A stretch of 27,612 nucleotides of DNA, taken from the IMG/VR virus record IMGVR_UViG_3300039346_000011; one strand, 5' to 3'. Shown here in pieces: positions 12,482 through 27,612 of the stretch. How positions within the stretch are numbered: the first letter of the stretch is position 1; every line of letters starts with the position of its first letter. The DNA comes from a virus (lineage: Duplodnaviria > Heunggongvirae > Uroviricota > Caudoviricetes). Position numbers and translations under genes: made by a program. The notes beneath the pieces are model-generated. The model had not been told where the DNA came from and did not search any database. It saw only the letters and a program-made list of their open reading frames with translations.

Positions 12482-12630
12482 CGGCTGAATACCTCACTGA
12501 TCGCTTCTTTGACTGCGCCAGCTACTGGCGCATTAATCCCTTCGAATTGCTGAATATGCCGATCAGTGAAATTCCCTTGCTGGTCAGTCAGGCAAACAGG
12601 ATAGAGCAGGAGAAACGCACACATGGCTGA
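12212..12630 (+). CDS. Tail assembly chaperone, predicted -1 frameshift fusion product (about 139 aa)
   Basis: Track ORFs 12212..12481 and 12448..12630 overlap in frames related by -1; the -1 ORF has no SD-preceded start and ends overlapping the tape-measure start, as in lambda G/GT. Confidence 0.6.
12463..12469 (+). promoter_or_regulatory. Slippery heptamer T_TTT_TTC for programmed -1 ribosomal frameshift
   Basis: Zero-frame codons GGT TTT TTC give X_XXY_YYZ = T TTT TTC; after the slip the reading continues CCT CCA GGC (PPGLTAEY...), matching the downstream ORF. Confidence 0.6.
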
Positions 12631-14458
12631 ATTTGAGCTTAAGGCGTTGATCACCGGTGTCGACAGGCTTTCTCCCGCGCTGTCGAAAATGCAAAAGAAA
12701 ATCCGGGGATTTAAACGCCAGGCGGAAGAAGCGTCACAGGGTGGGCTGGCGCTTGGTGGCGGACTGGCTGCGGGTCTGACGCTTTCCCTGAAATCTTATG
12801 CCGATCAGGAAAACGCCGCCACCGGGCTGAAAGTTGCCATGATGGATGCGAACGGTGAGGTCGGAAAGCGCTTTCAGGACATCAATAAACTGGCTATTGG
12901 TCTGGGTAACCAGCTACCCGGTACAACGGCTGATTTCCAGAACATGATGCAGATGCTGGTGCGTCAGGGGATCCCGGCAGAAAACATTCTTGGCGGTGTG
13001 GGTAAAGCGACAGCTTATCTTGCGGTACAACTGAAAAAAACACCGGAAGCGGCTGCCGAGTTTGCCGCAAAGATGCAGGATGCTACCGGAACGGCGTCAG
13101 AAGACATGATGGGGCTGTTCGACACTATCCAGAAGGCGTTTTATCTGGGCGTTGACGATACCAACATGTTGTCCTTCTTCACTAAAACCAGCTCTGTTCT
13201 GAAGATGGTGAACAAGGACGGTCTTCAGGCTGCACAGAGCCTTGCCCCCATCAGCGTCATGATGGATCAGATGGGGATGAACGGGGAGTCGGCAGGTAAC
13301 GCCCTGCGAAAAGTTATCCAGTCCGGATTAAGCGTTAAGAAAATCAGGGACGTCAATAAAGTCATGGCCCGCCAGAAACTCGGGGTACAGCTCGATTTTA
13401 CTGACGGCAAAGGGAGTTTTGGCGGTCTTGATAACATGTTCAGGCAACTGGCAAAGCTGCGAAAACTGACCGACGTTAAGCGAACTGGTGTACTTAAGGC
13501 AATATTTGGTGATGATGCCGAAACCCTTCAGGTGGTCAATGCACTAATCGATAAAGGAAAGGATGGCTACGACCAGATCCAGCAGAAGATGAATAAACAG
13601 GCCAGTCTGAATAAACGTGTTCAGGCACAGCTTGGTACGCTGTCCAACCTGTGGGAGGCAATGACAGGGACCGCAACTAACGGCCTTGCGGCTATTGGCG
13701 GCGCATTTTCTGGTGACGCTAAAAATATCACGCAATGGCTGGGGGAGTTGGGGGAGAAATTCACGAAGTTTGCGGATGAAAATCCCCGGGTTATTCGCGG
13801 CGTCGTCGGGCTTGCTGCCGGTCTTGCGATTCTGAAACTGGGATTGATGGGCGTTGGCGGTGCCATCAGTATTGTCAGCAGGATCATGTCGATGACGCCG
13901 ATTGGCATGATTGCGACGGCGATAGCCCTGGCTGCGGGATTAATTATCACTAACTGGGATGTTGTCGGACCTTATTTCAAGAAGCTCTGGGAAACCATTG
14001 GTCCTTATTTTGAGGCTGGCCGGGAACTTCTGAAGAAGGTTTTTGCCTGGTCGCCGCTGGGGATGGTAATCAATAACTGGGGACCGGTTGTTAAGTGGTT
14101 TCAGGATATGTGGGACAAGCTGAAGCCAATTATTGAGTGGTTTACCGACAGTTCCGGTGACACGGTCGATGCCATTAACTCTGCGCAGTGGGGCGCGGGT
14201 GCTTATGATGCTTATGGGACGGGAATACCGGCACGGGGATACACACCTTATCAGGCGGTGGATCCGGCTCAGTCAAACAACGCCTCCGGTGCCACAGGCC
14301 CGAATCCCTTCATGATTAACAAAGCTTCTGCGCCAAAAGTTGATGGTGAGATCAAGGTCTCTTTTGTGAATTCACCTCCGGGTATGCGGGTTATGGAAAC
14401 GCGATCCAGCGGTTTTGATGTCAGCCATGATGTTGGCTATACGCGCTTTGGCAGGTAA
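12623..14458 (+). CDS. Tail tape measure protein
   Basis: 611 aa, Ala/Gly-rich with central hydrophobic segments; immediately after the frameshifted chaperone. Confidence 0.85.
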   Translation: MAEFELKALITGVDRLSPALSKMQKKIRGFKRQAEEASQGGLALGGGLAAGLTLSLKSYADQENAATGLKVAMMDANGEVGKRFQDINKLAIGLGNQLPGTTADFQNMMQMLVRQGIPAENILGGVGKATAYLAVQLKKTPEAAAEFAAKMQDATGTASEDMMGLFDTIQKAFYLGVDDTNMLSFFTKTSSVLKMVNKDGLQAAQSLAPISVMMDQMGMNGESAGNALRKVIQSGLSVKKIRDVNKVMARQKLGVQLDFTDGKGSFGGLDNMFRQLAKLRKLTDVKRTGVLKAIFGDDAETLQVVNALIDKGKDGYDQIQQKMNKQASLNKRVQAQLGTLSNLWEAMTGTATNGLAAIGGAFSGDAKNITQWLGELGEKFTKFADENPRVIRGVVGLAAGLAILKLGLMGVGGAISIVSRIMSMTPIGMIATAIALAAGLIITNWDVVGPYFKKLWETIGPYFEAGRELLKKVFAWSPLGMVINNWGPVVKWFQDMWDKLKPIIEWFTDSSGDTVDAINSAQWGAGAYDAYGTGIPARGYTPYQAVDPAQSNNASGATGPNPFMINKASAPKVDGEIKVSFVNSPPGMRVMETRSSGFDVSHDVGYTRFGR

Positions 14459-14481
14459 TGAAAAATTAATCTGTTAATGAG

Positions 14482-14503
14482 TCCCACTCCGGTGGGATTT
14501 TTT
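14482..14503 (+). terminator. Hairpin plus T-run between tape-measure and DNA-circulation genes (possible attenuator)
   Basis: TCCCAC-TCCG-GTGGGA followed by TTTTTT. The upstream part of track ORF 14477..15442 reads through this, which argues for the later ATG at 14519. Confidence 0.45.
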
Positions 14504-14518
14504 ATGTACGGAGTTTAT

Positions 14519-15847
14519 ATGACGTGGAAAGACAGACTTCAGGACGCGTCATTTCGCGGTGTGCCGTTTAAGGTTGAAGAAGAAAGTGCGGGAACCGGTC
14601 GTCGTGTGGAAACGCACGAATACCCGAACCGCGACAAACCCTATACCGAAGACCTGGGGAAAATCACTTTCCGCCCGTCCATCACAGCTTATGTGGTGGG
14701 AGATGACTGCTTTGACCAGCGCGATCGCCTGATTGACGCGCTGAATAAACCCGGTCCCGGCACGCTTGTCCATCCGACTTACGGTGAGCTGAAAGTCTGT
14801 GTTGACGGGGAAGTTCGGGTCAGCACATCGAAGAGTGAAGGGCGTATTGTCCGCTTTGACCTGAAGTTTGTCGAAGCGGGAGAACTCTCTTACCCCACTT
14901 CAGGTGCGGCGACGGCGCAGACGCTGATGTCATCCTGTTCTGCACTGGATGACTGCATCAGTGACAGCTTCAGTGGTTTCAGTATCGATGGCGTGGCAGA
15001 TTTTGTGCAGAACGACGTCGTCGGTAATGCCAGCACAATGCTTGGGTATGTTTCTGATGCGATGAAAGTGGTGGATTCTGCCGTATCGGATGCCGCCAGG
15101 CTGTTGCAGGGGGATATCTCGGTACTTCTGCCGCCGCCATCGTCAGGCAAAAATTTCGTTGAGCAGGTGCAGAAAATGTGGCGTACCGGGAAACGCCTTT
15201 ATGGTAACGCCAGCGACCTGGTCACCATGATCAAAACGCTTTCCGGTGTCAGCCTCGGCAGCGATCTGCAACCGCGCGGCGTCTGGAAAACGGACAGTAA
15301 AACCACCGCCACGGCGACGCAGCAGCGTAACGTGGTTGCCAGCACCCTTCGTACGACCGCAATCAGCGAAGCGGCGTATGCCGTCACACGATTGCCTGCG
15401 CCCACAACTTCCGCGGTGATGCAGAATGCCACAGTGGGGTAGTCAACAACACCCGCGCAGAGCACCGGCTGGCCTTCTGTCACGCATCCGGCACTGAACA
15501 ATGCACCGGCGGTGAAAAACACGGTTGACCTGCCAACGTGGGAAGAACTGACCGACATTCGCGACACACTGAATACGGCAATTGATAAGGAGTTGTCCCG
15601 TACAACCAGTGATGTGCTGTTTCTGGCGCTGCGCCGGGTGAAAGCAGATCTGAATGCGGATATCAACACGCGCCTTGAACAGTCTGCACGGATCATTCAG
15701 CGCACACCGGATGAGGTTTTACCCGCGCTGGTGCTGGCGGCGACCTGGTTTGATAACGCGGCGCGTGACGCGGACATTATCCGGCGTAATGCCATTACGC
15801 ATCCCGGCTTTGTGCCGGTGATCCCTCTGAAGGTGCCAGTGCAATGA
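14519..15847 (+). pseudogene. DNA circulation protein (Mu gpN-like) interrupted by an in-frame TAG at 15440-15442
   Basis: Track ORFs 14477..15442 and 15512..15847 share one frame; the 69 nt between them have no stop; the downstream part has only a GTG with no SD yet is ATGA-coupled to the next gene. Start taken at 14519 (GGAG SD). Confidence 0.55.
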
Positions 15848-16923
15848 ACGATAACGTCACGCTACGGGTAAATGGCCGGGAGTGGAATGGCTGGACATCG
15901 GTGCGCATCGGTGCCGGTATTGAACGGCTGGCGCGGGATTTCAGTGTGGAGATCACCCGCCAGTGGCCGGGTGATGAGGGTATCACCACGCTTCAGCCGC
16001 GCATTAAAAACGGTTCAAAAGTGGAGGTGCTGATTGGTGATGAGCTGGTGATCACCGGCTGGGTGGAGGCGACGCCCGTTCGTTACGATGCCCGTTCGGT
16101 CAGCACCGGTATTGCCGGACGCAGTCTGACCGCTGACCTGATTGACTGTGCAGCCGAACCGACACAGTTTAACGGACGATCGCTGGTACAGATTGCGCAG
16201 GCGCTTGCTGCGCCTTTCGGCATTGAGGTGGTGAACAACGGTGCGCCGTCGGGTGTTATTCCTGACGTCCAGCCCGATCACGGTGAAACGGTGATTGAGG
16301 TAATCAACAAAATACTCGGTCAGCAGCAGGCACTGGCTTACGACGACCCACACGGCAGGCTGGTGATTGGCGGTATTGGCTCAACGCGGGCACATACTGC
16401 GCTGGTACTCGGGGAAAACATCCTTTCCTGCGATACGGAGAAGAGTATCCGGGAGCGGTTTTCTGTTTACCAGGTGGCGGGGCAGCGTGCTGGAAACGAC
16501 GATGATTTCGGTGAGGCCACCACCAGCGCGCTGCGGGCCCGCACAGAGGACGCATTTATTGCCCGTTACCGTCCGATGTATATCAGGCAGACAGGGCAGG
16601 CTACGGGGGCAGGCTGTATTGCGCGTGCTGACTTTGAAGCCCGACAACGGGCGGCGCGGACGGATGAAACCACCTATGTGGTGCAGGGCTGGCGACAGGG
16701 TAACGGTACGCTGTGGCAGCCCAACCAGCGGGTGATTGTCTTCGATCCGGTCTGTGGTTTCGACAATACCGAACTGCTTGTCTCGGAAGTCACGTTTACT
16801 CAGGACCAGAACGGCACCCTGACGGAAATCCGTGTCGGCCCACCTGATGCTTATCTGCCTGAACCCGAAGCCCCCGGCGCGCGGAAAAAGAAAAAAGCCA
16901 GAGTACAGGAGGACCCGTTCTGA
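15844..16923 (+). CDS. Baseplate hub / tail protein (Mu gpP-like)
   Basis: 359 aa; position after the DNA-circulation gene in Mu-like order; translationally coupled. Confidence 0.65.
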   Translation: MNDNVTLRVNGREWNGWTSVRIGAGIERLARDFSVEITRQWPGDEGITTLQPRIKNGSKVEVLIGDELVITGWVEATPVRYDARSVSTGIAGRSLTADLIDCAAEPTQFNGRSLVQIAQALAAPFGIEVVNNGAPSGVIPDVQPDHGETVIEVINKILGQQQALAYDDPHGRLVIGGIGSTRAHTALVLGENILSCDTEKSIRERFSVYQVAGQRAGNDDDFGEATTSALRARTEDAFIARYRPMYIRQTGQATGAGCIARADFEARQRAARTDETTYVVQGWRQGNGTLWQPNQRVIVFDPVCGFDNTELLVSEVTFTQDQNGTLTEIRVGPPDAYLPEPEAPGARKKKKARVQEDPF

Positions 16924-17471
16924 TGAGTACGATTGAAGCCATGCAGCGACAACTCCTCGGCCTGATTGGGCGGGCAGTGGTGAAAAGCATCAGTGCCGCC
17001 ACGAAATGTCAGACCGTGGATGTGTCCCTGATTGCCGGTGAACCCAAAGCCGGGGTTGAACATCTTGAACCCTACGGTTTTACCGCAAGGGCAAACAGCG
17101 GTGCGGAAGCGGTGGTGTTGTTTCCGGATGGTGACCGTTCTCATGCGGTGGTTGTTACGGTGTCGGACCGGCGCTACCGCCTGAAAGGGCTGCAGACGGG
17201 TGAGGTGGCGGTCTATGACGATCAGGGGCAGTCTGTGACGCTGACCCGGGAGGGGATCGTGGTGGACGGTGCAGGTAAAACGATCACGTTTCGCAATGCA
17301 CCTGAAGCACGTTTTGAAATGGACCTGGAAGTGACAGGACAGGTGAAAGACCTGTGCGACTCCAGCGGCACCACCATGTCAGCGATGCGGCTTGCCTATA
17401 ACGGGCATCGTCACAGAGAGAACGGTCAGGGCAGTAACACCGACAAACCTGATAAAGCGATGGAGGCATGA
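16923..17471 (+). CDS. Baseplate spike / assembly protein V-like (Mu gp45-like)
   Basis: 182 aa; ATGA coupling to flanking genes; position consistent. Confidence 0.6.
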   Translation: MSTIEAMQRQLLGLIGRAVVKSISAATKCQTVDVSLIAGEPKAGVEHLEPYGFTARANSGAEAVVLFPDGDRSHAVVVTVSDRRYRLKGLQTGEVAVYDDQGQSVTLTREGIVVDGAGKTITFRNAPEARFEMDLEVTGQVKDLCDSSGTTMSAMRLAYNGHRHRENGQGSNTDKPDKAMEA

Positions 17472-17897
17472 TGGAACTGTGGCTGACGGTGAACGGTAAA
17501 CGCACCTGCGCCAGCGCACCGCTGGATCCGCTGACCCGCGCCGTGGTGATTTCCCTGTTTACCTGGCGGCGGGCGGAGCCTGATGACAACGCCGACGTCC
17601 CGATGGGATGGTGGGGGGGATACCTGGCCTGCGGTACAGAATGACCGTTACGGCTCCCGACTGTGGCTGCTTCAGCGCAGCAAACTGACCAATCAGCTGG
17701 TGCAGACGGTAAGGGGGTATATCCGCGAATGCCTGCAATGGATGATTGATGACGGCGTGGTGTCCCGTATTGATCTGGATATCCTCCGCACCGGGATTAA
17801 TGAACTGGGTAACAGTATCACTCTCTGGCGTCGTGACGGACCGGTAATGATTTCTTTAGATGATCTGTGGAGTGCGATAACGCATGGCGGACAGTGA
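17468..17897 (+). pseudogene. gp46-like baseplate protein gene split by a frameshift at a G7 homopolymer
   Basis: ATG at 17468 overlaps the previous stop; that frame stops at 17642-17644. Track ORF 17583..17897 is in the +1 frame. One G fewer in the run at 17613-17619 would give a continuous ORF of about 142 aa. Confidence 0.55.
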
Positions 17898-19520: not shown

Positions 19521-20264
19521 ATGCATCGTATAGACACGAAAACCGCGCAGAAGGATAAGTTCGGCGCGGGTAAGAACGGTTTTACCCGTGGTAACCCCCA
19601 GACAGGCACGCCTGCCACCGATCTGGATGATGACTACTTTGACATGTTGCAGGAAGAACTCTGCAGCGTGGTGGAGGCATCCGGTGCCAGTCTGGAGAAG
19701 GCGCGGCACGACCAGCTGCTTACCGCGCTTCGTGCGCTGCTGTTAAGCCGCAAGAATCCGTTTAGCGATATCAAATCGGACGGCACGGTGAAAACGGCTC
19801 TCGAAAACCTTGGTTTGGGAGAAGGCTCTGCATTACCTGTTGGTGTGCCTGTTCCATGGCCTTCAGCCACACCGCCAACAGGCTGGCTGAAATGCAACGG
19901 TGCGGCTTTTTCTGCTGAAGAATACCCGGAACTGGCAAAGGCTTATCCGACAAATAAATTGCCTGATTTACGTGGTGAGTTTATTCGTGGCTGGGATGAT
20001 GGGCGCGGCGTTGATTCAAGGCGTGCGGTGCTGTCAACACAAGAGCCAACTGTAGGTACTTTTTATGTGGAGCTAGCTATCATCTCGGGAACTTTGAGCG
20101 GCTCAGGTGCTAAATTTACCGATTCAGTAGGGATTGGATCAACCAGTAGTAACATTACCGTTAGCAACGGTAATGACCAGTCCGTGTCGGGTACAGTGGC
20201 CGTTAACCCCGTCGATACCCGTCCACGCAACATTGCATTTAACTATATCGTGAGAGCAGCATAA
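19521..20264 (+). CDS. Tail fibre protein with tail-collar-type C-terminus; constant N-terminal part plus currently joined variable C-terminal part
   Basis: 247 aa; [19 protein letters not shown] and C-terminal [15 protein letters not shown] motifs; the left crossover site lies inside at about codon 93. Confidence 0.8.
19798..19823. repeat. Left crossover site of the invertible segment (gix/hix/pix-like)
   Basis: CTCTCGAAAACCTTGGTTTGGGAGAA; its last 14 bp are the exact reverse complement of the first 14 bp of the right site at 21725..21750, with weaker similarity across the remainder; encodes LENLGLGEG in the fibre. Confidence 0.7.
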
Positions 20265-20866
20265 TGGATAAAGCAATATTAAATAGTGGACTTGTTGCTA
20301 CAAAGGCAGGGGATATTACCGTTTATAACTATGATGGTGAAACTCGGGAATATATTTCCACTTCAAGTGAATATCTTGCCGTTGGTGTTGGTATCCCGGC
20401 ATATTCCTGTCTGGATGCACCAGGTATACATAAGGCGGGTTATGCTATCTGTCGTTCTGTGAATTTAAATTCATGGGAATATGTGCCAGACCATCGCGGT
20501 GAAATCGTCTATAACACCGAAACGGGAGAATCAAAACAAATCACAGCACCGGGTGATTACCCCGAAAATACAACCACTATTGCCCCATTAACGCCATACG
20601 ATAAATGGGATGGTGAGAAATGGGTGACCGATACTGAGGCACAGCATAGCGCCGCAGTAGACGCGGCAGAAGCACAGCGTCAGTCACTGATTGATGCTGC
20701 AATGGCTTCCATCGGTCTGATTCAGCTGAAATTACAGGCCGGACGGAAGCTGATGCAGGCAGAAACAACCCGGCTTAACGCTGTGCTGGATTACATTGAC
20801 GCGGTGACGGCAACAAATACCAGCACAGCGCCGGATGTCATCTGGCCTGAACTGCCGGAGGCGTAG
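20264..20866 (+). CDS. Tail fibre assembly protein (Tfa)
   Basis: 200 aa; TAATG overlap with the fibre gene; C-terminal ...DVIWPELPEA typical of Tfa chaperones. Confidence 0.8.
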   Translation: MDKAILNSGLVATKAGDITVYNYDGETREYISTSSEYLAVGVGIPAYSCLDAPGIHKAGYAICRSVNLNSWEYVPDHRGEIVYNTETGESKQITAPGDYPENTTTIAPLTPYDKWDGEKWVTDTEAQHSAAVDAAEAQRQSLIDAAMASIGLIQLKLQAGRKLMQAETTRLNAVLDYIDAVTATNTSTAPDVIWPELPEA

Positions 20867-21281
20867 GCCATTCAATATCTGGCGCACAGGAAGTATCGAC
20901 CAGTTCCAGTGCGTCCAGATAATCCAGCCACGAATTATATTGCGCCAGTTCCTCGCCTTTCAGACGACCAATAGCAGCTTTGCCAGGCCACTGATGGGTA
21001 TTGATGTAGGTATTGACTTCTGAAACCAAAGATATTTTTTTCATTTCAGCCGTCAACACCTCATCCTCTTTTGAAGGGGGTGGGGAATTAATCCATACTG
21101 GCCGTCCTGAACTGTCAGCGCCAATTTCTTTCCCTTCTGGATGCAGACCAAGAAATTGCTCATATGTTTCTCTGGTAATTTCAATAACATCATCAGGAAG
21201 CGTTCCCGCATCCTCATATTCTGGAAACAATTCTTGCAGATAAAAACTTTTACTTCCGGGTGAAAAGAATACTGAGTTCAT
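20838..21281 (-). CDS. Alternative tail fibre assembly protein (Tfa'), inverted orientation
   Basis: 147 aa on the minus strand, convergent and 3'-overlapping with Tfa; C-terminal ...DIEWPTPPAVQAR Tfa-type. Confidence 0.75.
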   Translation of the reverse strand: MNSVFFSPGSKSFYLQELFPEYEDAGTLPDDVIEITRETYEQFLGLHPEGKEIGADSSGRPVWINSPPPSKEDEVLTAEMKKISLVSEVNTYINTHQWPGKAAIGRLKGEELAQYNSWLDYLDALELVDTSCAPDIEWPTPPAVQAR

Positions 21282-21283
21282 TA

Positions 21284-21750
21284 TTACCGTCCAATGATTA
21301 ACGCTGAGACGCTGGTATCTGAAGGAAAGGCTGCATTCAGTGGTTTGTCGACTTTGAACACAATCGTATTATTCCCCCTGACAGCGGCAAAAGAACAAAC
21401 CGCCGTCGCGTATGAACCTGTAATATTACTGGATACACCACCATAAGCTGTTGTTGATACCAGAGGGATAACGCCCAGCACCTTATTAGGAAATACAAAG
21501 GGCAATGTGGCTGTGGCAATATAAGACTTATTAGAACCTGTGATGGCATAAGCATTATCAGTCATTCCATTCATCGCCACTGGGCCGCTTATACTTACAG
21601 TAACCATCTGAATGATTAGCCCGTCAGGTTGACGAATCACAAAATTTCCATTGCCACCAGTAACCGTCCAGAAAGACATATCAGGGATTTGGTTTTCCCC
21701 GTTGCCCACATTCCGTTTTGCCGCTTCTCCCAAACCAACGTTTATGAAAA
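21284..21750 (-). CDS. Alternative tail-fibre C-terminal module, silent in this orientation
   Basis: Minus-strand frame open from the right crossover site to 21284 (track ORF 21284..21778); encodes ...GLGEAAKRNVGNG... at the site, paralleling LGLGEGSA in the expressed fibre. Confidence 0.6.
21725..21750. repeat. Right crossover site of the invertible segment
   Basis: TTCTCCCAAACCAACGTTTATGAAAA; resembles the enteric Hin/Gin/Pin site consensus as I recall it and is the inverted partner of 19798..19823. Confidence 0.7.
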
Positions 21751-21804
21751 TGCAGAAATAACGAGCAAATGGCATCATTCCTGCTTTTGTCAGGGAGATC
21801 TACC

Positions 21805-21933
21805 ATGCTTATTGGCTATGTACGTGTGTCAACAAATGACCAGAACACAGATCTACAACGTAATGCGCTGAACTGTGCAGGATGCGAGCTGATTTTTGAA
21901 GACAAGATAAGCGGTACAAAGTCCGAGACCTAG
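21805..21933 (+). pseudogene. pin: Serine DNA invertase (Pin/Gin/Hin family), 42-codon N-terminal stub
   Basis: MLIGYVRVSTNDQNTDLQRNALNCAGCELIFEDKISGTKSET then TAG; matches the Pin/Hin N-terminus including the catalytic-Ser context (YVRVST), but full invertases are about 185-190 aa. Confidence 0.8.
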
Positions 21934-22028: not shown

Positions 22029-23918
22029 TTAATCGTGTTTTGGCCATACTTTCAATGCAATTTCCCCCAACTTTTTACCCCGCTCCAGGATTTCATCCTC
22101 ATCCCATTTATCCTTAACTATAAGTGGAATGTTCAGTCGTAGATTGGTGTGGACGATGAGAGCATCACGTTTTTTCAGAAATACAGCATTCTGAACAGAA
22201 CGGTTTACGCTAAGGTTAAGCAAAGTTAGATTTCCCAAAGTAGATATCGCTTGTTGCCGTTTCCTTACCAGTAGCTGTTCAGGGGTAAGATCGGTTCCAG
22301 ACAGAACAATTTGGTTCAATACCGTAGCATCTGAATTTGTCACCATACGACCATTTTCGAGAGGCCAACAGGAATACCAACTTTGAGGCATAAGATGATC
22401 GATATCGAGATTAGAAAGATTTGGAACATCAGGCTTTTCTGTCTTTACTTGGCGACAAAGTTCTCTTTCAAGTTCCGTTAACATTGAGCGCATTTTCGGT
22501 GCGTCGAGCCTGCCAGGATAAAGTGGAGCATTGATGCAAGCGTTGAGAAATTCTGAGTCACCAGGCCAACGTGAGGCTTCGCCATTTAAGTTATTGAGGA
22601 TATTACGTAACTCAACACTGGAAATTTCCGTTTTAGCCAAGTGCCGCAATACATTCATAAATACATTGTTGTAATTCTTTGGCGTCAGGCCACATACGGC
22701 TCTTCGTACTACGTAGGAGACAAGATCATTATACATGGCTGCTTTCTCATCATCAGCGATGTTAGCTATCGAAATGAACAAAGCAAGCGGATAAAGTGTC
22801 GTCACATCATAGTCTGCGATGCGATATCCAAAGTGTGAGATGGGGGTTGTGCCAAAACCATCAACCAATTCTTTATATTGTGATGCATATTGTTTGAGGC
22901 GCTTTACTTGCAGATCTGCTCGTTGTGAAGACAAGTCCTTACTTACATAATCACGATACTCATTGTAAAGGCGAGACAGATCAATTTCACGTTGCCTTTC
23001 TGATTGCAATGTCGCATGTACTAGCCACTCCATGCGTGGTTTATTAATACGTCCACGGCGTTGTTTTTCCGACCAGTATTTATCTTCAAAGCTCTTCCAC
23101 TCATTTTCATATAATTCAATAGCATTAATATTTTCATGCTCAGCGCACATAAAGATATAGTTGCGAATAAGATCCGTAGCATGAAGTTCCGCCCCTCGCC
23201 CATTTAATGTTTCAAAAATTATTTGGGCATCATCTTCAGCTTCGAGAAATATGCTTACCAGTTTCAGATCTGTTAAGACAGCCTCAATTAGAGCTACAGC
23301 ATTTTCTTGTGGTGAGTGGTTTTCTATTTTAATCCATTTTATAAAGGCTTCAGTAAAAAAACATAATGCTTCTAGTGATGGCGGGTGATTAAAATGCTTA
23401 CGCAACGTACCATGCTGCGTGAAACTATCAGAGAATACGTCCCGGAGATCGTCAATATTTTCAACATTAAAACTTTGAATAAAATGAGTTTGATCCCGAA
23501 AAGTTGGCCACAGTTTGAAGCGTTCTACTTCTTTATTTCGCATTGTGTCTTCGTTTGAGTTTTTCAGGCAAGGCGAAATGAGAGCCTCTAAGCTGGAAAG
23601 ATCCGTAGCACGTAATGCTAATCGGATGGATGCCAGAACATATTGAAGAGTGGTCAATCGTTGCTGACCATCAATAATATGTATGGAATCTACACCTAAT
23701 AATCCTTTTTTTGATTGAGGTTCCAGTACAACCGCACCAAGGAAATGGGGAGTTGGTTTTGTACCCGAGAGCCGGGATTGTACTTTCTCTAGGATATCCT
23801 CCAGTAGAGCTGACCACTGGTCTTGCTGAGTCCATACATAGGCACGTTGATAGAATGGAACACAGTATTGTCGGCGGTCTTGAAAAAGTTGTTGGACAGT
23901 TAGCGTCTCGGATTTCAT
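22029..23918 (-). CDS. DUF262/DUF1524 two-domain nuclease (GmrSD/BrxU/SspE-like type IV restriction-type protein)
   Basis: Track ORF 22029..23978; likely start is the ATG at 23918 (MKSETLTVQQLF...). N-terminal FYQRAYVW and IIDGQQRLTT (DGQQR) motifs; C-terminal DIDHLMPQSW His-Me-finger-like motif; low GC. Confidence 0.8.
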   Translation of the reverse strand: MKSETLTVQQLFQDRRQYCVPFYQRAYVWTQQDQWSALLEDILEKVQSRLSGTKPTPHFLGAVVLEPQSKKGLLGVDSIHIIDGQQRLTTLQYVLASIRLALRATDLSSLEALISPCLKNSNEDTMRNKEVERFKLWPTFRDQTHFIQSFNVENIDDLRDVFSDSFTQHGTLRKHFNHPPSLEALCFFTEAFIKWIKIENHSPQENAVALIEAVLTDLKLVSIFLEAEDDAQIIFETLNGRGAELHATDLIRNYIFMCAEHENINAIELYENEWKSFEDKYWSEKQRRGRINKPRMEWLVHATLQSERQREIDLSRLYNEYRDYVSKDLSSQRADLQVKRLKQYASQYKELVDGFGTTPISHFGYRIADYDVTTLYPLALFISIANIADDEKAAMYNDLVSYVVRRAVCGLTPKNYNNVFMNVLRHLAKTEISSVELRNILNNLNGEASRWPGDSEFLNACINAPLYPGRLDAPKMRSMLTELERELCRQVKTEKPDVPNLSNLDIDHLMPQSWYSCWPLENGRMVTNSDATVLNQIVLSGTDLTPEQLLVRKRQQAISTLGNLTLLNLSVNRSVQNAVFLKKRDALIVHTNLRLNIPLIVKDKWDEDEILERGKKLGEIALKVWPKHD

Positions 23919-24303
23919 GGTATACCTGTAAGCGACATTGTACAAAAGTGAGGAGTTAATCTGATTTAGAACAATCATTTTATTTTGCTATGATACAACG
24001 TATTTGTTACCGATTAAGTAAAAAACGCGTCTGAACGCTGACGTTTTAGGGCTTTACTGGTTATTCTTTCTTATCTCTTCATCATCCCATCGGCATCCTG
24101 TCGAGGTTGTTGACTTGTTGTTATTTATTTTGTCTAGGCGCTGTTTAATTATTATTGATAGAATTGATGGTGAGAGGTGATTGAAACCGTAGGCACGTCG
24201 TTTGCAAGGACGTGCTACGACTGGCTGGTGAACTTCCGATAGTGCGAGTATTGAATGATTTCCTACGTGCTAACTAGTGAACAAACAACTCTTCAGTAGA
24301 CTC

Positions 24304-24521
24304 TCAGGTATCATTCAGAGTTTCCTGAACGAAAGTTTTAGCTCAATCTTTATCTGCAGTATGTCTAACTGAAAAACTATCGTTGCTGGTGGCTTTTACG
24401 ATCATCTCCACATCGTCATAACGCTTGCCAATGTGTTGGGTTAATTCTTCCTTTAACGCGTCCACAGCGCCGTTTGGCATTTGGTCATTTTGTCTTTGGC
24501 TATGGAGATCTCAATACGCAT
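24304..24521 (-). pseudogene. dinI-like gene remnant with a frameshift and an in-frame TGA
   Basis: Minus strand from ATG at 24521 encodes [14 protein letters not shown], then after a 1-nt shift [37 protein letters not shown]..., then TGA at 24345..24343, then ...FVQETLNDT; colinear with DinI as I recall it. Confidence 0.5.
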
Positions 24522-24534
24522 AACACTTCTTTTG

Positions 24535-24582
24535 TACTGCGTTTGTAGACAGTATTATTCTTATCTGTGTAAATAAACAGTA
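24535..24582. promoter_or_regulatory. Two tandem LexA (SOS) box candidates upstream of the dinI-like remnant
   Basis: TACTGCGTTTGTAGACAGTA (24535-24554; CTGC-N8-ACAG) and ATCTGTGTAAATAAACAGTA (24563-24582; perfect CTGT-N8-ACAG). Confidence 0.5.
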
Positions 24583-24722
24583 TCAAGACTTCGTTTTAGC
24601 TGCATAAGAAAAAAGAGATGGATACATTCGGAAAGATTTTGATGGTGGTAGGCTAAGTGAATAGCCTAAAGGTGTTTTACCCCAATTATTCCCCGGTATT
24701 TCTCCGCATAAAAAACAATCAT

Positions 24723-24747
24723 AAAAAAACCAGCCATAATAGGCTGG
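24723..24747 (-). terminator. Rho-independent terminator immediately 3' of the partial tRNA
   Basis: Plus strand AAAAAAA-CCAGCC-ATAATA-GGCTGG; on the minus strand this is hairpin plus U7, 15 nt after the tRNA CCA end. Confidence 0.6.
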
Positions 24748-24762
24748 TTCTTAAGGGATTTT

Positions 24763-24815
24763 TGGTCGGCACGAGAGGATTTGAACCTCCGCCCCCCGAC
24801 ACCCCATGATGGCGA
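24763..24815 (-). tRNA. Partial tRNA-Pro-like gene (3' portion only: anticodon arm, T-arm, acceptor 3' strand, CCA); probable att remnant
   Basis: Minus strand ...CCATCATGGGGTGTCGGGGGGCGGAGGTTCAAATCCTCTCGTGCCGACCA; 3' ~45 nt closely match enterobacterial tRNA-Pro(GGG) as I recall it; no 5' acceptor strand or D-arm follows. Confidence 0.55.
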
Positions 24816-24918
24816 GCTACGATCTTAAGGGCTGTTATGTGCCAGAAACAGAGATTTTTATATTCCTCACTCTGGAAATCATAATGCTAACTAGTAGGGA
24901 TTATAAGTTGTCAATTGA

Positions 24919-25743
<825 letters not shown>

Positions 25744-25797
25744 TTTCGGAATGGAACTGGATTTCATATTGTGGTCAATTTTCGCACATGATGAGAG

Positions 25798-25822
25798 AGA
25801 GCCCGCGATAGTTGGCTCTTTT
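25798..25822 (+). terminator. Rho-independent terminator after the GIY-YIG gene
   Basis: AGAGCC-CGCGATAGTT-GGCTCT followed by TTTT. Confidence 0.45.
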
Positions 25823-25953
25823 GTGCAAAGTCTGACCAATATTTATTCCCCTCACTGGACGTTACACTCAGACTATCCACTGCTGACATGCCAGTGATTT
25901 AAAAGGAATGCTGCTGATTTAAATAGCGAAAACTTCACTAAAGAGGATGTAAA

Positions 25954-26247
25954 ATGACACTACCCAAGTTCAGGAATGACCTACAAGTTGAAGCTAATTA
26001 CTCTATCAATCAAGCCCGTGAAATGGTTGGGAAAACGGTGAAATCTGTCCAGATTGGTTTTCAGAAAACTGGAGTACAGGTTCATCAGACTGAAATGCTA
26101 ATCATCACGTTTACAGATGACACTCAACTTGCCATCTCAACAGGTTCAAACGTTGTAAACATAACGTCGTTAATTGGGCGTGGTGGCAGTTGCGAGCTTA
26201 AGCCTGCGGATTTTCACGTAGATTTTGATTTGACCTGGCAAAGATGA
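25954..26247 (+). CDS. Hypothetical 97-aa protein
   Basis: AGAGGA SD 7 nt upstream of the ATG; no recognisable motif; followed by a GC-rich inverted repeat. Confidence 0.5.
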   Translation: MTLPKFRNDLQVEANYSINQAREMVGKTVKSVQIGFQKTGVQVHQTEMLIITFTDDTQLAISTGSNVVNITSLIGRGGSCELKPADFHVDFDLTWQR

Positions 26248-26254
26248 CAAATCC

Positions 26255-26299
26255 GGCCGTGCCAGCGGCCTTTTTCATGCTCGTCCTGCTGGCACGGCC
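26255..26299. terminator. GC-rich inverted repeat between convergent genes (putative bidirectional terminator)
   Basis: GGCCGTGCCAGC ... GCTGGCACGGCC perfect 12-bp inverted repeat with 21-nt spacer containing TTTTT. Confidence 0.4.
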
Positions 26300-26334
26300 G
26301 CAAACCTAATCCTGTAAGGTGACACTTAAGCGTG

Positions 26335-27123
26335 TCAGAACTGCGCAATAACAACCTTCACTTTTCCTTCCGCGTCTTTAGATTCCAGATCGGTTTTCAC
26401 GCCCAAAGGATTATTTATGTAGCAATCCGGGTCATATACAAACAAGATCAACGTATCGCAGTCTTGGTGAGCGCGGTAGCGCGCCATATCAATAAGCAAC
26501 TCTCCACCAACTTTACCCGCTCCCAGAGATTCACGGGTTTTCTTCACCTCTATCACAATTTTCTCTTTTTTCAAAAGAAAGTCCTGTCTTGAGGCCGCGC
26601 CCGCAAAGCTGGGGGTATACTCTTCCGCCCTAATATCATTAAAATGAAGCGTCAGCAGTGCATAAATCAAATCCTGTACGTCATACTCATCATTAACTTC
26701 AAGCGGCGCACGGCCGTTGTACCGCCTCTTTAACTGGCGAACAAAGGTCGGAAACCTGTTAAGAATATTAAGTACGAGGCTCAGCGGCGAACCTTCTTGA
26801 GGAGTATTAGTACTGACAGCAGAGTGCGCAAGATCATCTCTCGCCGCATCAAACAACGGTTTATAACTTTTGATCAGTGTATTGTAATTAGAAGACCACC
26901 TGCTGTTTACAGTATTGAAGTCATTGTAATAATCAGACTCTTTTCCGTAGCTGTCCTCTATTAACTTTTTCACTCTGGCGATCCAGTTTTTATATTTACC
27001 AGAATCAACATAGGTTTCCATAGTGTGAGTGAGAACGTTCTGCGCAGTATATTTTGTGGAAATGAGCGCATCGTAATCTTTCTCAAGCGCCCTAAATCTT
27101 TCTTCCAGTTGTAGATTTGTCAT
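26335..27123 (-). CDS. Hypothetical protein with C-terminal PD-(D/E)xK-like nuclease motif
   Basis: 262 aa; GGAAGG SD; N-terminal helical region; C-terminal ...EYDVQDLIYALL...RQDFLLKKEKIVIEVKK... has E / D / E-x-K spacing reminiscent of the restriction-endonuclease fold. Low GC. Confidence 0.6.
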   Translation of the reverse strand: MTNLQLEERFRALEKDYDALISTKYTAQNVLTHTMETYVDSGKYKNWIARVKKLIEDSYGKESDYYNDFNTVNSRWSSNYNTLIKSYKPLFDAARDDLAHSAVSTNTPQEGSPLSLVLNILNRFPTFVRQLKRRYNGRAPLEVNDEYDVQDLIYALLTLHFNDIRAEEYTPSFAGAASRQDFLLKKEKIVIEVKKTRESLGAGKVGGELLIDMARYRAHQDCDTLILFVYDPDCYINNPLGVKTDLESKDAEGKVKVVIAQF

Positions 27124-27317: not shown

Positions 27318-27495
27318 ACGCGCCCCAATCCTATATATCTACTTCATAGCTTTTCAGTAAGGAATGAATATATTAATTTCTGTGATGATTAGTATCGGAG
27401 GGTACGAATGACTATATATCGCTCATAGCAAACGCTCACATCTGTTATGGTTAGAAAGCAGGAAGAGGGGGACAGGCTACGGTATAAGAAAAGTG

Positions 27496-27612
27496 TGAAC
27501 CGCCCCGGGTTTCCTGGAGAGTGTTTTATCTGTGAACTCAGGCTGCCAGATCATCGTTTCCGATGGAAGCATAATAAGCTTTTTCTGCTTCTGCCGGAGG
27601 AGTATGGCCCAG
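27496..27612 (-). mobile_element. IS3-family insertion sequence (IS629/IS1203-like), terminal 117 bp: inverted-repeat end plus 3' end of transposase orfB; element continues past window end
   Basis: Plus strand TGAACCGCCCCGGGTTTCCTGGAGA from 27496 shares TGAACCGCCCCGG-N3-TCCTGGAGA with the terminus at 94; same orientation as the left copy. Confidence 0.75.
27538..27612 (-). CDS. IS3-family transposase OrfB, C-terminal fragment (truncated by window edge)
   Basis: Minus-strand frame from the window edge encodes ...LGHTPPAEAEKAYYASIGNDDLAA then stop (plus TCA at 27538-27540), just inside the inverted repeat. Confidence 0.6.
   Translation of the reverse strand: MGHTPPAEAEKAYYASIGNDDLAA

What the first reader, a model, noticed from the sequence alone, without database searches (positions are those of the whole stretch)
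14519..15847. In-frame amber codon inside the Mu N-like DNA circulation gene
Two track ORFs in the same frame are separated only by TAG at 15440-15442. The downstream part lacks a credible start but is ATGA-coupled to the next baseplate gene, so it reads as one gene (about 443 codons) with a nonsense lesion. It is either an inactivating mutation in a decaying prophage or a suppressible amber.
Basis: seen in the sequence. Interest (0 to 1): 0.5.

Follow-up and report, generated by a model that had tools for sequence, protein, structure and literature searches.

The report
Nonsense-mutated tail gene in decaying prophage
A single C-to-T change has put a stop codon into a baseplate gene of an SfV-like prophage in one E. 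coli lineage; it is an ordinary pseudogene that RefSeq already flags as such.

Summary
An ORF starting at ATG 14519 is interrupted by an in-frame TAG at 15440-15442 (codon 308). It resumes in the same frame to TGA 15845-15847, which overlaps the ATG of the next baseplate gene.

It is one gene: the homologue of phage Mu N/gp43, the tail-tube initiator also called the DNA circularization protein, in an SfV/SfI-like prophage next to ssrA in E. coli.

- **Ancestral state.** Phages SfI and SfV and strain UTI89 carry CAG (Gln) at this codon, so the lesion is one C>T transition.
- **Frequency.** Of 5426 complete E. coli genomes, 1097 carry the gene and 8 carry the TAG allele. PGAP marks it "internal stop" in all 8.
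- **Not a sequencing error.** The exact 307-aa product is on record from 254 contigs.
- **No restart.** There is no in-frame ATG after the stop, and the first GTG has no Shine-Dalgarno sequence.
- **No rescue found.** There is no tRNA gene in the window, none of four classical amber-suppressor alleles in the TAG genomes, and no Rfam match.
- **Decay.** This window and seven of the eight TAG genomes each carry further, different lesions in the prophage.

Verdict: a recent, clonally inherited inactivating mutation in a decaying prophage. It is already known in kind and of low interest.

The parts
14519..15847 (+). Pseudogene of the Mu N/gp43-family protein (tail-tube initiator, also called DNA circularization protein). 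It has 442 sense-equivalent codons, interrupted at codon 308.
   Evidence: Translation. PGAP annotates the same coordinates as 'DNA circularization protein, internal stop' in the 8 genomes that are identical here. The intact 442-aa allele is found in UTI89. PHROG 184 matches residues 1-440 in one stretch, E 1.8e-145. Mu gp43 (9ki1) aligns over residues 10-433.
15440..15442 (+). Premature amber codon TAG, derived from CAG (Gln) by one C>T transition at position 15440.
   Evidence: Alignment with SfI and SfV, which have CAG. UTI89 has CAG. In the SNP table, position 15440 is T in the window and the 8 TAG genomes and C in UTI89. The 31-mer test finds TAG in 8 genomes and CAG with the same flanks in 154.
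14519..15439 (+). The translatable N-terminal 307 codons. They hold the tube-like DNA_circ_N domain (aa 7-93, nt 14537-14797) and the first part of the helix-rich region.
   Evidence: Pfam PF07157, E 2.8e-34, aa 7-93. PHROG 184 profile positions 3-302. This exact 307-aa protein is on record from 254 contigs.
15443..15844 (+). The stranded C-terminal 134 codons, now untranslated. This is the conserved end of the helix-rich, wedge-contacting region.
   Evidence: PHROG 184 profile positions 298-408 and PHROG 17109 positions 74-204. The conserved C-terminal block aligns with Mu gp43 residues 428-485. No in-frame ATG follows the stop, and GTG 15512 has no Shine-Dalgarno sequence.
15844..16923 (+). 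The Mu P/gp44-like baseplate hub gene. Its ATG overlaps the N stop codon (ATGA), so its translation is probably coupled to that of N. Lowered expression after the premature stop is an inference.
   Evidence: Sequence. Annotated as 'phage baseplate assembly protein', 'baseplate hub' and 'similar to Mu P'. Its own Shine-Dalgarno sequence is weak, -3.9 kcal/mol.
14479..14500 (+). Terminator-like hairpin followed by a T-run, lying between the tape measure gene (ends 14458) and N. It covers the upstream in-frame ATG at 14477, which favours ATG 14519 as the true start.
   Evidence: Terminator scan. The SfII records list a 'terminator' feature under the same stretch. The Shine-Dalgarno sequence before 14519 scores -6.1 kcal/mol.

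Best explanation
The region is one gene. It is the SfV-type homologue of phage Mu N/gp43, the hexameric tail-tube initiator of the baseplate, historically called the DNA circularization protein. A single C>T transition turned Gln codon 308 (CAG) into amber (TAG).

Translation now stops after 307 residues. The product keeps the N-terminal tube-like domain but lacks the last 134 residues. In Mu, that region belongs to the helix-rich domain that clamps the wedges to the hub.

Nothing re-initiates translation downstream. The next gene, the Mu P-like hub, is ATGA-coupled to the old stop and probably loses expression as well (inferred). A prophage with this allele should therefore make few or no functional tails (inferred).

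The mutation arose once, recently, in one E. coli lineage. It has since been inherited vertically while the prophage collects further independent lesions.
For: **Shown**
- The TAG is present and in frame.
- CAG stands at this codon in SfI, SfV and UTI89.
- The window differs from UTI89 at only 5 mismatches and 2 gaps over 27,404 aligned bases, and position 15440 is one of them.
- TAG occurs in 8 of 5426 complete genomes. The gene is present in 1097, and CAG with identical flanks occurs in 154.
- All 8 TAG genomes, and the window, also share T at 5638 against UTI89. This fits a single origin.
- PGAP flags 'internal stop' in all 8.
- The exact 307-aa product is on 254 contigs and the intact 442-aa product on at least 1000. 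The allele is therefore real and clonal, not a read error.
- Homologues span both pieces: Mu gp43 over residues 10-433 and PHROG 184 over 1-440.
- No downstream start is credible.
- Each lineage has its own further decay:
  - IS3-associated loss of the early region in SCU-116, MS20673 and Eco_23-2678;
  - a deletion in J/ymfQ in BEN5202;
  - IS5 and IS3 insertions plus a fusion to lambdoid tail genes in FY26;
  - an IS3 inside the DUF262 gene in E12053;
  - an IS3 near the right end in NCTC11151;
  - in this window, a +1 G frameshift in the gp46-like gene and an IS3 end inside the holin gene.

**Role of the protein.** Mu gp43 is the tube initiator. Its helix-rich domain embeds the wedge helical bundles (PMC11915804).
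Against: - Loss of function is inferred, not measured.
- The TAG lies in a poorly conserved Ser/Thr/Ala/Gln-rich stretch, so the truncated product might still fold.
- Low-level natural readthrough of UAG by tRNA-Gln would, by coincidence, restore the wild-type residue. Only six copies are needed per virion.
- In strain E10 no other lesion was seen in the 40 kb examined. Decay there rests on this codon, plus the truncated invertase and the DinI pseudogene that UTI89 also has.
- Only four suppressor alleles were tested. Their sequences came from my memory. Only supE was validated by its hits to K-12 laboratory strains.
Confidence: 0.9

Rival explanations
1. Sequencing or assembly error: the T at 15440 is not real.
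For: It is a single-base difference from close relatives. The window looks like a short-read contig bounded by IS3 ends. Reads could not be inspected.
Against: The identical allele is present in 8 independently sequenced complete genomes from different hosts and countries. The exact truncated protein is on 254 contigs in public collections. The site is not in a homopolymer.
Confidence: 0.01
2. Suppressible or leaky amber. Full-length protein is still made through a host suppressor tRNA or natural near-cognate readthrough, so the prophage stays viable, perhaps at reduced yield.
For: Near-cognate reading of UAG by tRNA-Gln would restore the ancestral Gln (my knowledge of E. coli readthrough, not tested here). 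Only a hexamer is needed per virion. Strain E10 shows no other new lesion.
Against: - There is no tRNA gene in the window.
- None of the 8 TAG genomes carries supE, supF, supD or supP alleles. The union query gave 166 genomes with at most one place each. The supE control hit K-12 laboratory strains only among those listed.
- The stop is not conserved in relatives.
- There is no Rfam element.
- The codon is followed by U. From memory, this is an efficient termination context in E. coli.
- The window's own copy has further lesions.
Confidence: 0.06
3. A functional split gene: the two halves are made as separate polypeptides that assemble.
For: The stop falls in a poorly conserved linker-like stretch. 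Gene callers have deposited a 111-aa product starting at GTG 15512.
Against: There is no in-frame ATG. GTG 15512 has no Shine-Dalgarno sequence (+0.4 kcal/mol against a median of -6.6). No relative has this architecture: all phage and most prophage copies are single ORFs. The split is one base change old.
Confidence: 0.02
4. Adaptive domestication: the host selected the truncation, for example to stop release of infectious phage while keeping the accessory genes.
For: The allele persists in a successful lineage (254 contigs). The accessory genes (DUF262, GIY-YIG and PD-(D/E)XK proteins) stay intact in most copies.
Against: A tail defect does not protect the lysogen from lysis on induction. Later lesions hit different genes at random, accessory genes included. 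Persistence is explained by hitch-hiking in a clone. No recurrent independent origin was seen.
Confidence: 0.03

Closest known systems
Phage Mu N / gp43 (DNA circularization protein; tail-tube initiator; PDB 9ki1)
   Same: - An N-terminal DNA_circ_N tube-like domain.
- Colinear alignment over residues 10-433, including the conserved C-terminal block.
- The same gene order: tape measure, N, P-like hub, gp45-like, gp46-like, gp47-like.
   Different: Sequence similarity to Mu is low (E 4e-14). The protein is shorter: 442 aa against 495 aa for the solved Mu chain. In this window the gene is cut by a nonsense codon. DNA circularization has never been tested for the SfV-type protein.
orf15 of Shigella phage SfV, gp17 of SfI, and the intact allele WP_001350765.1 of E. 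coli UTI89
   Same: The same gene at 97.4-99.9% DNA identity in the same prophage type. The UTI89 prophage sits at the same chromosomal site next to ssrA.
   Different: Those copies have CAG at codon 308 and are uninterrupted. SfV and SfI are functional phages. Their records start the gene 15 nt upstream, at the equivalent of window 14504.
Pseudogenes with 'internal stop' in defective prophages, as annotated by NCBI PGAP
   Same: The same object. The identical sequence is annotated this way in 8 RefSeq genomes.
   Different: Nothing of substance. The window's strain adds a private frameshift in the gp46-like gene and an IS3 end in the holin gene.

Membership tests
Mu N/gp43 family (DNA_circ_N, PF07157; PHROG 184) | N-terminal DNA_circ_N (tube-like) domain | tested here: met
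   PF07157, E 2.8e-34, aa 7-93 of the 307-aa fragment. Curated cut-off 21 bits, score 117.9.
Mu N/gp43 family (DNA_circ_N, PF07157; PHROG 184) | Full-length colinearity with family members, including the C-terminal region | tested here: met
The two window fragments hit profile positions 3-302 and 298-408.
Mu N/gp43 family (DNA_circ_N, PF07157; PHROG 184) | Position between the tape measure gene and the Mu P/gp44-like hub gene | tested here: met
   Annotated neighbours in SCU-116, SfI, SfV and UTI89. Window ORFs 12623..14458 and 15844..16923.
Mu N/gp43 family (DNA_circ_N, PF07157; PHROG 184) | An uninterrupted reading frame giving a full-length protein | tested here: not met
   TAG at codon 308. 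The window therefore holds a pseudogene of this family, not a working member.
Mu N/gp43 family (DNA_circ_N, PF07157; PHROG 184) | LysM-like module in the helix-rich domain, as described for Mu gp43 | tested here: inconclusive
   Pfam finds no LysM in the C-terminal 134 or 56 aa. The single-sequence AlphaFold model was too poor to use, mean pLDDT 51. The module is described for Mu in PMC11915804.
Mu N/gp43 family (DNA_circ_N, PF07157; PHROG 184) | Binding and non-covalent circularization of injected DNA | not testable with these tools
   A biochemical property, reported for Mu only (PMC11915804).
Programmed stop-codon readthrough or suppressor-dependent gene | The stop codon is conserved at this position among relatives | tested here: not met
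   CAG in SfI, SfV and UTI89. TAG in 8 genomes against 154 with CAG and identical flanks.
Programmed stop-codon readthrough or suppressor-dependent gene | A suppressor tRNA encoded by the element or the host | tested here: not met
   No tRNA gene in the window. No TAG genome carries supE, supF, supD or supP alleles (supE control). This covers four alleles only and is not a full tRNA scan.
Programmed stop-codon readthrough or suppressor-dependent gene | A known recoding RNA element next to the stop | tested here: not met
   No Rfam family reaches its gathering score anywhere in the window.
Nonsense pseudogene in a decaying prophage | A sense codon in close relatives, with the lesion explained by one base change | tested here: met
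   CAG to TAG.
Nonsense pseudogene in a decaying prophage | No translational restart for the downstream part | tested here: met
   No in-frame ATG. GTG 15512 lacks a Shine-Dalgarno sequence.
Nonsense pseudogene in a decaying prophage | Other independent lesions in the same element | tested here: met
   In the window: a +1 G in the gp46-like gene and an IS3 end in the holin gene. In seven of the eight sister genomes: IS insertions and deletions. In all copies, UTI89 included: a truncated invertase and a DinI pseudogene.
Nonsense pseudogene in a decaying prophage | Demonstrated loss of tail assembly or infectivity | not testable with these tools
   Needs induction and electron microscopy or plaque assays.

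The most novel reading that the evidence does not exclude
The amber is leaky rather than lethal. Near-cognate reading of UAG by wild-type tRNA-Gln would insert the ancestral glutamine, and a virion needs only six copies of the protein. Lysogens whose prophage is otherwise intact (for example strain E10) might then still release a small number of infectious particles. The lineage would carry an attenuated prophage rather than a dead one.
Probability: 0.12. Interest if true: 0.15.

Novelty: already known. Interest (0 to 1): 0.05.

Why it matters
It matters little beyond correct annotation. The two ORFs should be merged and labelled as one pseudogene of the Mu N/gp43-type tail-tube initiator. The prophage should be scored as defective.

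The allele can serve as a lineage marker. It is in 8 of 5426 complete E. coli genomes, and its exact 307-aa product is on 254 contigs. Because the TAG genomes each carry different later lesions, the set gives a small, dated example of how a prophage decays after a first hit in a structural gene.

Tried and rejected
I used the DNA alignment and the UTI89 allele instead.
- **First two Python comparisons** found no locus files, because loci are stored as multi-record FASTA. This was solved.
- **AlphaFold on the C-terminal 134 aa** as a single sequence gave mean pLDDT 51. That was too poor for a fold search, so the LysM question stays open.
- **Pfam** finds no LysM or any other family in the C-terminal part.
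- **The antisense ORF 15199..15696** (165 aa), which overlaps the TAG, has no family match and was set aside as spurious.
- **Rfam** found nothing in the window.
- **A literature search** for the earlier Mu baseplate assembly work did not find that paper in the library. The role of gp43 rests on PMC11915804.
- **Pyrrolysine or other reassignment of UAG** was rejected without a test, because the host is E. coli and relatives have CAG.
- **The source strain was not identified.** None of the 8 TAG complete genomes has the window's IS3 junctions or its private SNPs.
- **The large protein-database searches were not run**, because the complete-genome, phage, PDB and PHROG results already answered the question.

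Full report
**1. The observation**

The sequence shows ATG at 14519-14521, five bases after ACGGAG, and an in-frame TAG at 15440-15442. The same frame then runs on to TGA 15845-15847. Translation of 14519-15847 gives 443 codons with a stop at codon 308 and at the end. The ATG of the next gene (15844-15846) overlaps the final TGA as ATGA.

The ORF listing reports the two same-frame ORFs 14477..15442 and 15512..15847.

The in-frame ATG at 14477 lies inside a terminator-like hairpin (14479-14500, followed by a T-run) after the tape measure gene. The SfII records list a terminator under this stretch. ATG 14519 has a Shine-Dalgarno sequence scoring -6.1 kcal/mol and is the start PGAP uses. It is the best start.

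**2. What the element is**

The stretch is 100% identical to 8 complete E. coli chromosomes. It is 97.4-99.2% identical to the functional Shigella/E. coli phages SfI, SfII and SfV.

The window is the late region of an SfV-like prophage, a myovirus with a Mu-like tail module. In UTI89 and in five of the eight TAG genomes this prophage lies next to ssrA; in the other three a further prophage or satellite lies between it and the right end of the 40 kb fetched, where ssrA is not seen.

The gene lies between the tape measure gene and the Mu P-like hub gene. It is annotated as 'DNA circularization protein' or 'similar to phage Mu DNA circulation protein N'. In UTI89 the prophage has an integrase, a LexA-type repressor, the early genes and an intact 442-aa N homologue.

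**3. One gene or two**

- Pfam finds DNA_circ_N (PF07157) at residues 7-93.
- PHROG 184 ('baseplate hub') covers residues 1-440 of the UTI89 allele in a single stretch, E 1.8e-145.
- The two window fragments match profile positions 3-302 and 298-408, which are consecutive parts of one family.
- The solved Mu gp43 chain (PDB 9ki1, 495 aa, 'DNA circularization protein N') aligns from query residue 10 to 433. A well-conserved block lies at the very C-terminus, query 376-433 against Mu 428-485.
- SfI and SfV encode one uninterrupted ORF across the site.

It is one gene.

**4. The lesion**

SfI, SfV and UTI89 have CAG (Gln) where the window has TAG. Over 27,404 aligned bases the window differs from UTI89 at 5 mismatches and 2 gaps, and position 15440 is one of them. 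The lesion is one C>T transition.

**5. Frequency, and whether it is real**

I used 31-mers centred on the variant base. With megablast's 28-base word, every hit must then contain the variant.

| Test | Genomes, of 5426 complete E. coli |
|---|---|
| Gene present | 1097 |
| TAG allele | 8 |
| CAG allele with identical flanks | 154 |

All 8 TAG genomes are annotated by PGAP as 'DNA circularization protein, pseudogene, internal stop'. They come from humans, poultry and a monkey, and from at least six countries.

All 8, and the window, also share T at 5638 against UTI89. This fits one origin.

In the 15-billion-protein collection, the exact 307-aa product is on 254 contigs, the 111-aa GTG-started remainder is on 266, and the intact 442-aa protein is on at least 1000, the counting cap. 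The allele is therefore real and clonally spread. It is not a read error, and it is a small minority state.

**6. Can the downstream part be made?**

- **Restart.** There is no in-frame ATG after the TAG. The first in-frame start codon, GTG 15512, has an anti-Shine-Dalgarno pairing energy of +0.4 kcal/mol, against a median of -6.6 for 15 real starts in the window. The only candidate with a Shine-Dalgarno-like site (GTG 15731) would give 38 residues.
- **tRNA genes.** The window encodes none.
- **Host suppressors.** I built 31-mers of the supE, supF, supD and supP alleles from remembered tRNA sequences. supE plus supF hit 157 genomes, and those listed were C600, DH5alpha, DH1, J53, JM109, XL1-Blue and other K-12 laboratory strains. 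That serves as a positive control. Adding the TAG 31-mer and the supD and supP 31-mers gave 166 genomes with never more than one place per genome. No TAG genome therefore carries any of these alleles. This is not a complete tRNA scan.
- **RNA elements.** No Rfam family matches anywhere in the window.
- **Codon context.** The codon after TAG starts with U. From memory, this is an efficient termination context in E. coli; I did not test it.

**7. Expected consequence**

The cryo-EM study of Mu (PMC11915804) gives the role of gp43. It is the hexameric tail-tube initiator, with two parts:
- an N-terminal tube-like beta-barrel domain;
- a helix-rich domain of eight helices, including a LysM module. 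It reaches down to the wedges and embeds their three-helix bundles, stabilising the wedge-hub connection.

The truncated 307-aa product keeps the tube-like domain. It loses the last 134 residues, including the best-conserved C-terminal block.

From this I infer, but have not shown, three things:
- the baseplate cannot be completed;
- the ATGA-coupled P-like hub gene, whose own Shine-Dalgarno sequence is weak at -3.9 kcal/mol, is also under-translated;
- induction gives filled heads without working tails.

From memory, classical Mu N amber mutants lack tails. I could not retrieve that literature here.

**8. Is the prophage decaying?**

Yes. All copies, including UTI89, have a truncated invertase next to the tail-fibre segment and a DinI-like pseudogene. 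Beyond that, seven of the eight TAG genomes have a further lesion, of five different kinds.

| Strain(s) | Further lesion |
|---|---|
| SCU-116, MS20673, Eco_23-2678 | IS3-associated loss of the whole early region; antiterminator Q truncated and glaH brought alongside; IS3 insertions at the right end |
| FY26 | Fusion to lambdoid tail genes, two IS5 copies and one IS3 |
| BEN5202 | Deletion removing part of J and all of ymfQ |
| E12053 | IS3 inside the DUF262 gene |
| NCTC11151 | IS3 in the 262-aa nuclease-like gene |
| E10 | Nothing further in the 40 kb examined |

The window is from a ninth strain that is not among the complete genomes. It has three kinds of private difference:
- SNPs at 4217 and 8860;
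- a +1 G in a G6 run (now G7 at 17613-17619) that frameshifts the gp46/T4 gp25-like wedge gene;
- IS3-family ends at both window ends, the left one abutting the interior of the holin gene.

The shared TAG came first and the other lesions followed independently.

**9. Rivals**

- **Sequencing error** is excluded by section 5.
- **A suppressible or leaky amber** has no positive support (section 6). Low-level readthrough cannot be excluded by computation. It would restore Gln, and only six copies are needed per virion.
- **A functional split gene** is contradicted by the lack of a start and by the one-base age of the split.
- **Adaptive truncation** is not needed to explain persistence in a clone, and nothing points to it.

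**10. Comparison with what is known, and verdict**

The gene is a member of the Mu N/gp43 family by domain, colinearity and synteny. In this window it is a pseudogene of that family. The lesion is a plain nonsense mutation that NCBI's pipeline already flags in identical RefSeq sequences. There is nothing new in kind.

- Its first reading, an inactivating mutation in a decaying prophage, is supported.
- Its alternative, a suppressible amber, is not.
- Interest is low.

Noticed in passing
window 17471-17897 (G run at 17613-17619): The gp46 / T4 gp25-like baseplate wedge gene is frameshifted by a +1 G in a homopolymer (G6 to G7). The insertion is private to this window. UTI89 and all 8 TAG complete genomes have G6 and an intact 141-aa gene. 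It could be a second real lesion or a homopolymer sequencing error.
   Followed up: partly
window 1-94 and 27495-27612: Both ends of the window are ends of an IS3-family element; they match the IS3 copies in SCU-116. From my memory of its OrfA N-terminus (MTKNTRFSPEVRQ), it resembles IS629/IS1203. The left copy abuts the interior of the holin gene, whose start would fall at window 19, so the 5' end of the holin gene is lost. The window looks like a short-read contig bounded by IS copies. None of the 8 TAG complete genomes has these junctions.
   Followed up: partly
window 14479-14500: A terminator-like hairpin with a T-run lies between the tape measure gene and the N-like gene, inside the late operon. 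The SfII records annotate a terminator under the same stretch. Its function, for example attenuation of baseplate gene expression, was not examined.
   Followed up: no
window 19521-21927: The layout resembles an invertible tail-fibre segment: fibre and assembly genes on the + strand (19521-20866), a second assembly gene and a 164-aa ORF on the - strand (20838-21778), then a 123-nt remnant of a recombinase (invertase) gene at about 21805-21927. The remnant is shared by UTI89 and all TAG genomes, so the segment is probably locked in one orientation.
   Followed up: no
window 22029-27123: The accessory region at the prophage end carries defence-like genes: a DUF262 protein (- strand, 22029-23918 by PGAP), a DinI-like pseudogene (about 24304-24521), a LEM-3-like GIY-YIG protein (24970-25743) and a 262-aa PD-(D/E)XK nuclease-domain protein (26335-27123, - strand). 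IS elements have hit these genes in several sister genomes.
   Followed up: no
L007, L010 and L011 (BEN5202, E12053, E10), to the right of the prophage: In three TAG genomes a second mobile element sits to the right of this prophage. BEN5202 has a P2-like prophage (integrase, CI, replication endonuclease). E10 has a P4-like satellite (primase-helicase, Sid, ogr/Delta, polarity suppression protein), and E12053 has a similar gene set without the last two. This is tandem occupation of the site.
   Followed up: no
window 4217 and 8860: Two further private SNPs of the window's strain, in the large terminase gene and the head closure gene. The other nine genomes compared have C and G respectively. 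Their coding effect was not examined.
   Followed up: no
protein cluster 1: Other truncated forms of the same protein exist in public assemblies, for example a 352-aa form on 45 contigs. This gene may have been truncated independently more than once in E. coli and Salmonella prophages. Many of the shorter entries are contig-end partials.
   Followed up: no
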